Shown piece after piece: positions 15,001 to 18,000 of a stretch of DNA of 64,000 nt. A program made the position numbers. Source of the stretch: Escherichia coli (lineage in GTDB: Bacteria; Pseudomonadota; Gammaproteobacteria; Enterobacterales; Enterobacteriaceae). Where the stretch lies: NCBI RefSeq assembly GCF_048403405.1, contig NZ_CP183129.1; one strand, 5' to 3'. Position 1 is the stretch's first letter. The number at the start of each line of letters is the position of its first letter.

Positions 15001-18000
15001 AAAATCGGCATTAAGCAGGCGACAATTTCCAATTTCGAAAACAACCCTGACAATACCACGCTGACGACATTTTTTAAGATTTTACAGTCGCTTGAACTCT
15101 CAATGACGCTATGCGACACGAAAAATGCCTCGCCAGAATCAACAGAACAGCAAGATCTGGAGTGGTAATGCCTAAACTTGTCACTTGGATGAACAACCAG
15201 CGGGTAGGCGAGTTAACGAAGTTAGCCAATGGCGCGCACACCTTTAAGTATGCACCGGAGTGGTTAGCCAACCGTTATGCCAGACCGTTATCACTTTCGC
15301 TGCCATTGCAGAGGGGGAATATCACCTCTGATGCTGTATTTAACTTCTTCGATAACCTGCTACCCGATAGCCCGATTGTACGTGACCGGATCGTTAAACG
15401 TTATCATGCTAAATCCAGACAACCGTTTGATTTATTGTCAGAAATAGGGCGAGATAGCGTTGGTGCCGTAACGTTATTACCCGAAAATGAAACCATAACG
15501 CGCCCGATAATGGCATGGGAACAGCTCACTGAAGCCAGGCTTGAAGAAGTATTAACGGCTTATAAAGCAGATATCCCTCTGGGCATGATTAGAGAAGAAA
15601 ATGACTTTCGCATCTCGGTTGCTGGCGCGCAGGAGAAGACAGCGCTGCTCAGAATAGGCAATGACTGGTGCATTCCGAAAGGAATAACGCCGACGACGCA
15701 CATCATTAAATTACCGATTGGCGAAATCAGGCAGCCCAATGCGACGCTCGATCTCAGCCAAAGCGTTGATAATGAGTATTACTGTCTGCTGCTGGCGAAA
15801 GAACTTGGGTTGAATGTGCCGGACGCAGAAATCATTAAAGCGGGAAATGTGCGCGCGTTAGCGGTCGAACGTTTTGACAGGCGTTGGAATGCTGAGCGAA
15901 CGGTTTTACTTCGCTTGCCACAGGAGGATATGTGTCAGACATTCGGTTTACCTTCATCGGTGAAATATGAATCAGATGGAGGCCCAGGCATCGCGCGGAT
16001 CATGGCTTTTTTGATGGGGTCCAGCGAGGCGCTGAAAGATCGCTATGATTTTATGAAGTTTCAGGTGTTCCAGTGGTTGATTGGCGCAACGGATGGCCAT
16101 GCAAAAAACTTCTCCGTATTTATTCAGGCTGGCGGCAGTTATCGACTCACGCCATTTTACGACATCATTTCAGCATTTCCGGTATTGGGTGGCGCAGGAA
16201 TACACATCAGCGATCTCAAACTAGCAATGGGGCTTAACGCATCCAAAGGCAAAAAAACGGCAATCGATAAAATTTATCCGCGACATTTTCTGGCGACAGC
16301 AAAGGTGCTGAAATTTCCGGAAGTGCAGATGCATGAAATCCTGAGTGACTTTGCCAGAATGATTCCGGCAGCACTGGATAACGTGAAGACTTCATTACCG
16401 ACAGATTTTCCGGAGAACGTGGTGACGGCAGTTGAAACCAATGTGTTGAGGTTGCACGGCCGGTTAAGCCGAGAATACGGTATTAAGTAAGATATGGGGT
16501 TTTGGTCGTTGTTAATGAGCAGGACAATCATGACCGCCAACGACTGGATTCTCCCTTGGTTTATGTTGGTGCGCATAATGTATATTATGTTAAATGTGGT
16601 GGGTTTGTTCTTAAGTTCATGTGTTCCGCTCTTTCAGTAGCTTAACTGATGAATCAGTCAGCAGCTCTTGCCGTGCAAGCTACGCGGCGGTTCGTACCAG
16701 ATTGGCCACCTCCATCTCCTGGTTCGCTTTCCCCTCCCCCCGGTAAACCTCACCCAACGTTAATTAATGATGTCAGTATGTGGGCGCTATCCTCGTATGT
16801 AAAATCCACTGACGATTACGCCCATCTGTGAAAAAAAACTCACAATGCCATTCGATGCATCTCCATACTGAACGAGGCGTTATCGTCTTTATCGCCCCGT
16901 AGTGGATATCAGAAAATCAATCAGGGCCTTCACTCTTTTCGTTTTACCCGCGTTTTTGGGGTAATAGAGATACACTGGCGGGTAGGTTTTCCAGTAGCTC
17001 TCCATCACCGGAATAAAACGCTCCCTGTCCGGCTGTAACTGCCAGACAGGCTCAAACTTTCTAACTGTATACCCGGATATTGCTGACAGAATTCTGCCAT
17101 CGCAGGCTTAAGAATTAACAGGTAGGCAAAACGCGAGAGCGTAATTCGCACCATCCCAGAGGGCTCCTGATGCTGGTCGCGAATGCTTTCAAGTGAGTTT
17201 TCCAGCGACTCCACCGCCGCAGCGGTCTGTTCCAGCAATAATTGACCGGTTTCCGTCAGCTCTATACGGCGGGTCGTACGCACAAAAAGCGGATGGCCGA
17301 TATACTCTTCCAGCAGCTTTAGTGCATTGCTGACGGAGGGAGGCGTAATTTCCAGTTTCCTTGCGGCTGCCGAAATATTGCCCTCCCGCGCAATGCTCTG
17401 GAAGATGCGAATCTGGTTATAAAGAGCGTTATTCATAATGTTTTCCTAAGCAATTCTCGCCTGATTATTAAGTACAGTCTAAAAATGCTTAAGTCAATGA
17501 CCCTCTAATCTTCCTGAAATACGCCTCTTATACTTTAGTCTCTTTCTACTACGACCTGAGTTCAGGAGACTATGATGCGAATTTTATGTCTGGATATCCC
17601 TGCCCCTGGAGCATCGCTGGAGAAATATGCTCCGCACCTCAACGCTGAAGCGCTGCACGCCTGGGGATTGTATAAATCAGGCTTCATCCGCGACATCTAC
17701 TTCCGTCAGGACAGACCTGGCGTCGCTATTTTTCTTGAATGTGACTCTGTCGATGAAGCGATGAACGTTATGGCCGAATTCCCGTTGGCAAAAGCAGGCT
17801 TACTAAGCTTCGAGTGTATACCGCTTGGCTCCTTTATTAACTGGGAAAATCTCTTCGCCGATGAATTTAAAAATAAAGAGTGAGGACCGATATGAAACCT
17901 GCATATAAACCAGTGCTATGTGTCGTTTCCAGCCATCCGATTAAAGGCGCATCCGGTGTACCAACCGGTTTTTTCCTGGCCGAGCTGACTCATCCGCTGA

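What the first reader, a model, noticed from the sequence alone, without database searches (positions are those of the whole stretch)
16880..17436. LysR regulator with internal deletion and frameshift at the island edge
The N-terminal 143 codons (HTH plus the start of the effector domain) and a recognisable LysR C-terminal tail are both present but in different frames and too close together for a full ~300-aa LysR. This regulator, divergently placed to the detox block, is therefore inactive; it was probably the block's original regulator.
Basis: seen in the sequence. Interest (0 to 1): 0.35.

Follow-up and report, generated by a model that had tools for sequence, protein, structure and literature searches.

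The report
Broken LysR regulator gene (352-bp deletion)
This is an ordinary, very recent, strain-specific pseudogene: a 352-base internal deletion has cut out the sensor domain of a LysR-type regulator that sits head-to-head with a horizontally acquired detoxification-type gene block in an E. coli chromosome.

Summary
On the minus strand, 16889-17436 is a LysR-family gene with one clean 352-bp internal deletion (junction 17057|17058). It removes codons 127-244 of 299 and shifts the frame.

- **What is left:** 126 native residues (winged helix-turn-helix, linker helix, first strands of the effector domain), then 17 nonsense residues and a stop. The native last 55 codons follow in another frame.
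- **Intact allele:** the 299-aa form (WP_001057776.1) is present in about 453 complete E. coli genomes. None carries this deletion.
- **Age:** the nearest genome (strain 4621) differs from the whole 64-kb window by only 4 SNPs, one 1-bp indel and this deletion. The event is therefore very recent, or less likely an assembly error.
- **Orthologues:** almost all are 294-299 aa, in about 30 species. In 27 of 33 loci they lie divergent to subsets of the same block genes, and an LTTR-type box is conserved in most of them.

These results support "the block's regulator". Loss of effector-responsive regulation is inferred, not shown. The DNA-binding stub could retain some operator binding. Interest is low.

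The parts
16889..17436 (-). Whole LysR-family gene remnant (548 bp instead of 900 bp)
   Evidence: Two-block alignment to the intact allele L001 6390-7289, with 352 bp missing. RefSeq annotates the intact gene as a LysR family transcriptional regulator, WP_001057776.1.
17059..17436 (-). Native codons 1-126. They comprise the winged HTH (Pfam HTH_1, residues 7-65, = 17242-17418), the linker helix (about residues 62-86) and the first beta-alpha-beta of the effector domain (about 94-126).
   Evidence: Pfam hits. 100% identical to the intact allele. Secondary structure comes from the N-terminal part of the AlphaFold model, pLDDT about 70-87.
17057..17058 (.). Deletion junction. 352 bp (L001 6559-6910) are missing between these two bases. 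The join is blunt, with no microhomology.
   Evidence: The repeat search of the intact sequence found no repeat at the breakpoints.
17005..17058 (-). Frameshifted read-through: 17 non-native codons (SLSLSGSYSRTGSVLFR) and a TGA stop at 17005-17007
   Evidence: Translation; ORF list.
16889..17056 (-). Native codons 245-299 plus the stop codon (C-terminal tail of the effector domain). It is out of frame with the N-terminal part and so is not translated as part of it.
   Evidence: Frame-2 translation matches the intact tail FEPVWQ...STTGR exactly.
17437..17571 (.). Intact divergent control region. It holds a candidate LTTR box TTAAGTACAGTCTAA (17468-17482, a T-N11-A type dyad), a conserved CTAATCT (17505-17511, in the -35 area) and a conserved TATACT -10 candidate (17529-17534) for the block.
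   Evidence: Invariant columns in the 12-species alignment. In 23 of the 33 other-species loci the box is found with at most 5 mismatches 43-50 bp upstream of the regulator's ATG. The generic promoter scan did not call a site here, so the promoter assignment is inference.
17572..23786 (+). Divergent block, presumed target of the regulator. In order: 103-aa orphan protein, DJ-1/PfpI, aldo/keto reductase, broken amidohydrolase, flavodoxin-fold NAD(P)H oxidoreductase, second aldo/keto reductase, ABM-domain quinol monooxygenase-like protein, CMD/AhpD-like protein.
   Evidence: Pfam; RefSeq annotation of near-identical genomes; synteny in other species.
16589..16595 (.). Left copy of the 7-bp direct repeat GTTAAAT at the boundary of the accessory block. 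The right copy is at 24018-24024; K-12 has one copy.

Best explanation
The locus is a recently inactivated LysR-type transcriptional regulator (LTTR) gene. One blunt 352-bp illegitimate deletion removed codons 127-244 of 299 and shifted the frame.

The lost segment is the second half of regulatory subdomain I and most of subdomain II, that is, the effector cleft and the effector-domain dimer interface. The only product that can be made is a 143-aa stub: wHTH, linker helix, one beta-alpha-beta unit and 17 nonsense residues.

The intact protein is the dedicated regulator of the divergently transcribed accessory block, which looks like a quinone, carbonyl and peroxide detoxification set. It most likely binds the conserved T-N11-A-type box centred about 66 bp upstream of the block's presumed start and activates a promoter with a poor -35 element.

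In this strain effector-dependent tetramer formation and activation are lost, so the block should be stuck at its basal, uninducible level.

Shown: the deletion, the frameshift, the domain loss, its uniqueness to this strain, and the conserved synteny and operator. Inferred: the activator role, the consequence for block expression, and the detoxification role of the block.
For: - **Deletion mapped to the base** against the intact allele.
- **Domain content.** HTH_1 is retained. LysR_substrate falls from positions 1-205 of 209 in the intact protein to 1-38.
- **Purifying selection on the lost segment.** 56 of the 118 deleted positions are invariant among 23 orthologues.
- **Not seen in other E. 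coli.** All of the ~453 complete E. coli genomes with both halves of the gene match the 60-bp and 321-bp junction probes only as two pieces 352 bp apart. The same holds for the six genomes that are ~100% identical over 24 kb.
- **Very recent.** Strain 4621 differs from the full 64-kb window by 4 SNPs, one 1-bp indel and this deletion, and the remnant carries no other lesion.
- **Short product not conserved.** The 143-aa product is not in the 15-billion-protein collection, whereas the intact form has a 518-member cluster.
- **Orthologues and synteny.** Nearly all orthologues match over 294-299 residues, and they are divergent to block genes in 27 of 33 loci.
- **Conserved operator-like box**.
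- **The locus decays repeatedly in E. coli.** Strains AR_0372 and YL3 have different, independent deletions hitting the same regulator. The block's amidohydrolase is already a pseudogene.
Against: - The deletion is unique to this sequence and could not be checked against reads, so an assembly or consensus error cannot be excluded.
- No experiment links this LTTR to the block. The link rests on synteny and a conserved box.
- The generic sigma-70 scan did not call a promoter in the intergenic region.
- The start codon, ribosome-binding site and control region of the stub are intact, so a DNA-binding fragment may still be made. An isolated LTTR DNA-binding domain can bind DNA specifically and even activate (LeuO residues 1-101, PMC6698644).
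Confidence: 0.88

Rival explanations
1. The deletion is real, but the 143-aa stub (wHTH plus linker helix) is still made. It dimerises through the linker helix and occupies the conserved box. It would then act as an effector-blind repressor or occluder of the divergent promoters (or a weak constitutive activator) rather than being simply null.
For: The ATG, the conserved AGGA ribosome-binding site and the whole control region are unaltered. The stub keeps HTH_1 and the predicted linker helix 62-86. The LeuO DNA-binding domain alone (aa 1-101) binds specifically and activates Pcas (PMC6698644).
Against: The stub carries an orphan fragment of the effector domain (residues ~90-126) and 17 nonsense residues, which are likely to cause misfolding or proteolysis. 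The short form is not conserved anywhere. Classical LTTR activation needs a tetramer contacting two sites, which requires the effector-domain interface. That point rests on established family knowledge and is restated in PMC6698644.
Confidence: 0.12
2. The 352-bp gap is an assembly or consensus artefact, and the strain really has the intact 900-bp gene.
For: The allele is seen in no other genome or protein collection. The rest of the window is almost identical to genomes with the intact gene. An imperfect 20-nt direct repeat (80% identity) with 351-bp spacing lies near the breakpoints in the intact gene.
Against: The junction is clean and lies outside that repeat. No sizeable exact repeat exists that would collapse an assembly. 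Assemblers rarely drop a unique 352-bp segment. Independent natural deletions at this locus in other strains show that such events do happen here.
Confidence: 0.07
3. A genuine short regulator, or a product rejoined by programmed frameshifting, rather than a remnant.
For: None beyond the existence of the ORFs.
Against: Apart from damaged or contig-cut copies, the relatives found are 294-299 aa, and the closest genomes (100% identical flanks) have 299 aa. The tail is native sequence in the wrong frame. Even a rejoined product would lack 118 conserved effector-domain residues.
Confidence: 0.01

Closest known systems
Intact allele WP_001057776.1 (LysR family transcriptional regulator) of E. coli strains TUM14771, 4621, MS 69-1 and others
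   Same: 100% identical DNA on both sides of the junction, and the same neighbours: hipBA on one side and the divergent block on the other.
   Different: The intact allele has 352 more base pairs and encodes 299 aa with a complete LysR_substrate domain.
YafC of E. coli (NCBIfam NF040888), the best-scoring named LTTR model, followed by GcvA, TtdR and AaeR
   Same: Same family architecture. The full-length alignment covers residues 6-295.
   Different: The score is 162.8 bits against an equivalog cut-off of 470, so it is not a YafC orthologue. It is an uncharacterised LTTR subfamily.
Solved full-length LTTRs: 3mz1 (putative regulator), 3hhg (LysR-family regulator; CrgA of Neisseria meningitidis from my own knowledge), 3szp/3t1b (LysR-family regulator; AphB of Vibrio cholerae from my own knowledge)
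   Same: Sequence homology over the whole intact protein, with E-values from 3e-32 to 5e-21. The domain order is wHTH, linker helix, then a two-subdomain effector domain.
   Different: These are distant relatives with unrelated regulons. The window copy lacks the segment corresponding to most of the effector domain.
Isolated LTTR DNA-binding domains, e.g. the LeuO DBD (aa 1-101)
   Same: The window's stub retains the same modules (wHTH plus linker helix). In LeuO these modules suffice for dimerisation, specific DNA binding and promoter activation (PMC6698644).
   Different: The stub also carries a broken effector-domain fragment and a nonsense tail. Nothing is known about its stability or binding.
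Neighbouring E. coli pseudogenes of the hipA-ydeP interval (yneL, ydeT in K-12) and other decayed copies of this same regulator (strains AR_0372, YL3)
   Same: Deletional decay of accessory genes in the same chromosomal interval.
   Different: The breakpoints and extents differ. The window's event is confined to the regulator and is much younger.

Membership tests
LysR-type transcriptional regulator (LTTR) | N-terminal winged helix-turn-helix of the LysR type (Pfam PF00126) | tested here: met
   HTH_1 at residues 7-65, E = 1.4e-22, 79.8 bits against a cut-off of 26.6.
LysR-type transcriptional regulator (LTTR) | C-terminal effector-binding domain of about 200 aa (Pfam PF03466) in the same polypeptide, total length about 300 aa | tested here: not met
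   The window ORF covers only profile positions 1-38 of 209, at 22 bits (below the 28-bit cut-off), and is 143 aa long. The intact allele covers 1-205 of 209 at 93 bits and is 299 aa long. The window copy is therefore a remnant of a member, not a functional member.
LysR-type transcriptional regulator (LTTR) | Divergent arrangement with a target operon and a T-N11-A dyad box in the shared control region | tested here: met
   Divergent block genes occur in 27 of 33 other-species loci. The TTA-N9-TAA / TTAGC-N5-GCTAA box is conserved at a fixed distance from the ATG.
LysR-type transcriptional regulator (LTTR) | Effector-responsive DNA binding and transcriptional control | not testable with these tools
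   Needs gel-shift or footprinting assays and expression assays.
YafC equivalog (NF040888) | Score at or above the curated equivalog cut-off | tested here: not met
   162.8 bits against a cut-off of 470 for the intact allele.
Pseudogene (disrupted remnant of a functional gene) | Full-length intact orthologues or alleles exist in close relatives | tested here: met
   A 299-aa allele is present in genomes ~100% identical over 24-64 kb. Orthologues match over 294-299 residues in about 30 species.
Pseudogene (disrupted remnant of a functional gene) | A reading-frame disruption that removes an essential, conserved part | tested here: met
   The 352-bp deletion (not a multiple of 3) removes 118 residues, 56 of them invariant.
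Pseudogene (disrupted remnant of a functional gene) | The short form is not itself conserved | tested here: met
   0 of ~453 E. coli genomes carry it, and the exact product is absent from the protein collection.
Pseudogene (disrupted remnant of a functional gene) | Loss of function in vivo | not testable with these tools
   Needs expression and complementation experiments.

The most novel reading that the evidence does not exclude
The stub is not null. A stable wHTH plus linker-helix dimer still occupies the conserved box. It would lock the acquired detox-type block (and its own promoter) in an effector-blind state, as a naturally arisen 'DBD-only' LTTR comparable to the engineered LeuO DBD. 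The deletion would then be a regulatory rewiring rather than simple decay.
Probability: 0.08. Interest if true: 0.3.

Novelty: already known. Interest (0 to 1): 0.1.

Why it matters
It matters little beyond correct annotation. The locus should be marked as a pseudogene of WP_001057776.1, not as a short HTH protein.

Locally, it predicts that this one strain cannot induce an accessory block of DJ-1/PfpI, aldo/keto reductase, NAD(P)H oxidoreductase, ABM and CMD genes that its nearest relatives can presumably still regulate. The strain and its sisters therefore form a natural near-isogenic pair (4 SNPs per 64 kb here) for finding the inducer and regulon of an uncharacterised LTTR that is widespread in Enterobacterales.

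It also adds one more example of ongoing deletional erosion of this acquired block in E. coli.

Tried and rejected
- **Mechanism of the deletion.** I looked for microhomology or direct repeats at the breakpoints. The junction is blunt. The nearest repeat is an imperfect 20-mer with 351-bp spacing, 35-50 bp away, and it does not explain the join.
- **Promoter and terminator scan** of 16500-17700. It found nothing in the control region, so the promoter assignment rests on conservation only.
- **Literature searches.** Two searches were malformed. One searched for the gene combination and one for the RefSeq accessions. Neither returned a paper, so the LTTR and block appear uncharacterised in the searchable library.
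- **The 103-aa first gene of the block.** It has no Pfam, NCBIfam or PDB sequence match. I did not pursue it structurally.
- **AlphaFold model of the intact regulator** from 23 close orthologues. It was poor (mean pLDDT 55.6; effector domain below 50). I used it only for the N-terminal secondary structure and ran no fold search.
- **Genuine short protein or recoding.** Considered and rejected.
- **Match ending at 17057 in partial hits H87-H89.** I first wondered whether this was a shared breakpoint. It is trivial: it reflects the query's own junction, and those strains have different deletions.
- **Large protein-database searches.** Not run, because the E. coli and cross-species DNA evidence already settled the refutation test.

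Full report
**Context.** The window is an E. coli chromosome segment. In order it holds lsrGFBDCA, lsrRK, an ECSE_1600-family autotransporter, hipBA, an accessory block, a fimbrial operon (ydeT/S/R/Q homologues), ydeP, gadBC, dosCP, and ddp. Compared with K-12, the window has two extra segments, 16596-24017 and 24709-27989. It is bounded by a 7-bp direct repeat GTTAAAT (16589-16595 and 24018-24024), of which K-12 has one copy. About 8% of complete E. coli genomes (441-454 of 5,426) carry it.

**Checking the observation.** On the minus strand there is a 143-codon ORF (17005-17436), followed in another frame by a 39-codon ORF (16889-17008).
- The first ORF has a strong LysR-type HTH (PF00126, residues 7-65, E = 1.4e-22). 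It has only the first 38 profile positions of the LysR substrate-binding domain.
- E. coli TUM14771 has an annotated 900-bp, 299-aa LysR gene (WP_001057776.1) at the same place.
- Aligning the two gives two blocks, 100% and 99.9% identical, with exactly 352 bp missing from the window.
- On the coding strand the deletion starts after the first base of codon 127 and ends before the last base of codon 244.
- The window product is therefore residues 1-126, then SLSLSGSYSRTGSVLFR and a stop.
- Residues 245-299 (FEPVWQ...STTGR) are intact but in another frame.
- The single "mismatch" in the alignment is an artefact of the junction. The join is blunt, without microhomology.

The only refinements are that 126 of the 143 codons are native and that the remnant begins at 16889.

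**How old and how common is it?**
- A 321-bp and a 60-bp probe across the junction match about 453 E. coli genomes only as two pieces 352 bp apart. A genome with the deletion would have ranked first as one 100% piece, and none did.
- Six genomes are ~100.0% identical to window 9000-33000, and all of them span 24,353 bp instead of 24,001.
- Strain 4621 differs from the whole 64-kb window by four SNPs, one 1-bp indel and this deletion.
- The remnant carries no further lesions.
- The exact 143-aa product is absent from a collection of about 15 billion proteins. The 299-aa form sits in a 518-member cluster seen on at least 1000 contigs.

The event is thus strain-specific and very recent. Alternatively it is an assembly error, which I cannot test. 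I rate that unlikely because no repeat is present that could collapse an assembly.

**What was lost?** In the intact protein Pfam places HTH_1 at 7-65 and LysR_substrate at 89-294.
- The deletion removes 118 of those ~206 effector-domain residues.
- By the standard LTTR topology (established family knowledge: RD-I is roughly residues 90-165 plus the C-terminal ~35 residues, and RD-II roughly 165-265), this is the second half of RD-I and most of RD-II. That includes the effector cleft and the effector-domain dimer interface needed for tetramers.
- Among 23 orthologues, 56 of the 118 deleted positions are invariant, so the segment is under strong constraint.
- An AlphaFold model built from these close orthologues was poor for the effector domain (mean pLDDT 55.6). 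It gave a confident N-terminal layout: three helices plus a wing, linker helix 62-86, then strand 94-100, helix 104-119 and strand 123-129. This is what the stub retains.

**Is it the block's regulator?** Thirty-three related loci were recovered from other species. They include Phytobacter, Raoultella, Pantoea, Rouxiella, Rahnella, Pectobacterium, Klebsiella, Serratia, Yersinia, Erwinia, Kosakonia, Enterobacter and Buttiauxella, and more distantly Lautropia and Acinetobacter.
- Apart from a few damaged or contig-cut copies, they match over 294-299 residues.
- In 27 of the 33, the genes immediately upstream and divergent are subsets of the same block: the 103-aa orphan, DJ-1/PfpI, two aldo/keto reductases, amidohydrolase, flavodoxin-fold NAD(P)H oxidoreductase, ABM "quinol monooxygenase" and CMD/AhpD-like protein. 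Composition and first gene vary.
- The shared control region is conserved. In most loci a box TTTAGnCTGTAnTTAATAAT, degenerating to the perfect dyad TTAGC-N5-GCTAA in more distant species, lies 43-50 bp upstream of the regulator's ATG, whichever gene is first on the other side.
- In the window this box is TTAAGTACAGTCTAA at 17468-17482 (T-N11-A type). It is centred about 66 bp upstream of the presumed start downstream of an invariant TATACT (17529-17534). The -35 region is a poor match to consensus but invariant (CTAATCT, 17505-17511).

This is the classical layout of an LTTR-activated divergent promoter. The assignment is inference from conservation, since the generic promoter scan called nothing there. 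The control region is undamaged in the window.

**Mechanistic reading.**
- Shown: the gene cannot encode an effector-binding LTTR.
- Inferred: the block loses its inducible activation and stays at basal level.
- Not excluded: the stub (wHTH plus linker helix) is made, dimerises and still binds the box. Isolated LTTR DNA-binding domains can do this: the LeuO DBD (residues 1-101) binds specifically and activates Pcas (PMC6698644). The dangling effector-domain fragment and nonsense tail argue for instability, and the short form is conserved nowhere.

**Comparison with known families.** The intact protein is a bona fide LTTR but not an orthologue of any named one. The best NCBIfam model is YafC at 162.8 bits against a cut-off of 470. 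The closest solved structures are 3mz1, 3hhg and 3szp/3t1b at E = 3e-32 to 5e-21. No paper was found for the protein or the gene combination. The window copy fails the LTTR membership test for the effector domain and meets every sequence-testable criterion of a pseudogene.

**Wider pattern.** The block is eroding in E. coli.
- Its amidohydrolase is split into two or three pieces in all E. coli copies examined. Compared with the intact 349-aa Rahnella rivi orthologue it lacks residues 51-168 (a 356-bp deletion), and in this clone it has a further frameshift.
- Strains AR_0372 and YL3 have independent, larger deletions that remove the regulator's N-terminus together with adjacent block genes.
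- The block proteins are 85-98% identical to those of Rahnella, Pantoea and Phytobacter. DNA identity is 92-95% over the one segment compared, the amidohydrolase against Rahnella rivi. This is far above what I would expect, from my own knowledge, for vertically inherited genes between these families, so the block was probably acquired horizontally fairly recently.

**Verdict.** The finding is real and correctly interpreted, but it is ordinary: a young, strain-specific deletion pseudogene of an uncharacterised LysR regulator. Interest is 0.1, and the kind of feature is already known.

Noticed in passing
window 19690-20381 (+): The block's amidohydrolase is a three-piece pseudogene. Compared with the intact 349-aa Rahnella rivi orthologue (L009) it lacks residues 51-168, a 356-bp deletion with its junction near 19838/19839. 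It also has a later frameshift near 20166-20188. The 356-bp deletion is shared by other E. coli (L001, L002). Its size is oddly close to the 352-bp LysR deletion, which is probably coincidence.
   Followed up: partly
window 16589-16595 and 24018-24024: The 7.4-kb accessory block is flanked by a 7-bp direct repeat GTTAAAT, with a nearby ATGTATAT motif on both sides. K-12 has a single copy at the empty site. This could be a target-site duplication or the substrate of a precise deletion.
   Followed up: partly
L039 (E. coli AR_0372) and L040 (E. coli YL3): Independent, different deletions remove the N-terminal part of the same LysR gene together with adjacent block genes. In these lineages hipA is also disrupted, and a SIR2 gene and/or an ISNCY transposase remnant lie between hipB and the block.
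   Followed up: partly
window 17572-17883 (+): The 103-aa first gene of the block is conserved at 83-98% identity in about a dozen species. It has no Pfam, NCBIfam or PDB sequence match, so it is an orphan protein of unknown fold.
   Followed up: partly
L004-L011, L027 versus window 16889-23786: The LysR and block proteins are 85-98% identical between E. coli and distant Enterobacterales (Rahnella, Rouxiella, Pantoea, Pectobacterium, Phytobacter). This suggests recent horizontal spread of the cassette, whose gene content is modular.
   Followed up: partly
L020 (contig labelled MAG: Collinsella sp.): An 1,136-bp contig is 100% identical at protein level to the E. coli LysR and the 103-aa gene. 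It is probably E. coli contamination of an actinobacterial MAG.
   Followed up: no
L026, L032 (Candidatus Symbiopectobacterium) and L029 (Cardiobacterium MAG): The orthologous LysR copies carry an internal stop or a frameshift. These are further independent inactivations, two of them in Candidatus Symbiopectobacterium (a symbiont lineage, from my own knowledge).
   Followed up: no
window 24018-24708: The yneL-like HTH remnant next to the right edge of the block is annotated as missing its N-terminus in strain 4621. It is only ~85% identical to K-12, while the flanks are 97-98% identical, so this is a locally divergent allele or recombination patch.
   Followed up: no
window 50601: A 1-bp difference in a C-run (CCCCC here, CCCCCC in strain 4621), just downstream of the ORF at 49246-50565 (digH in strain 4621). 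It is the only other indel in 64 kb and is a possible homopolymer sequencing error.
   Followed up: no
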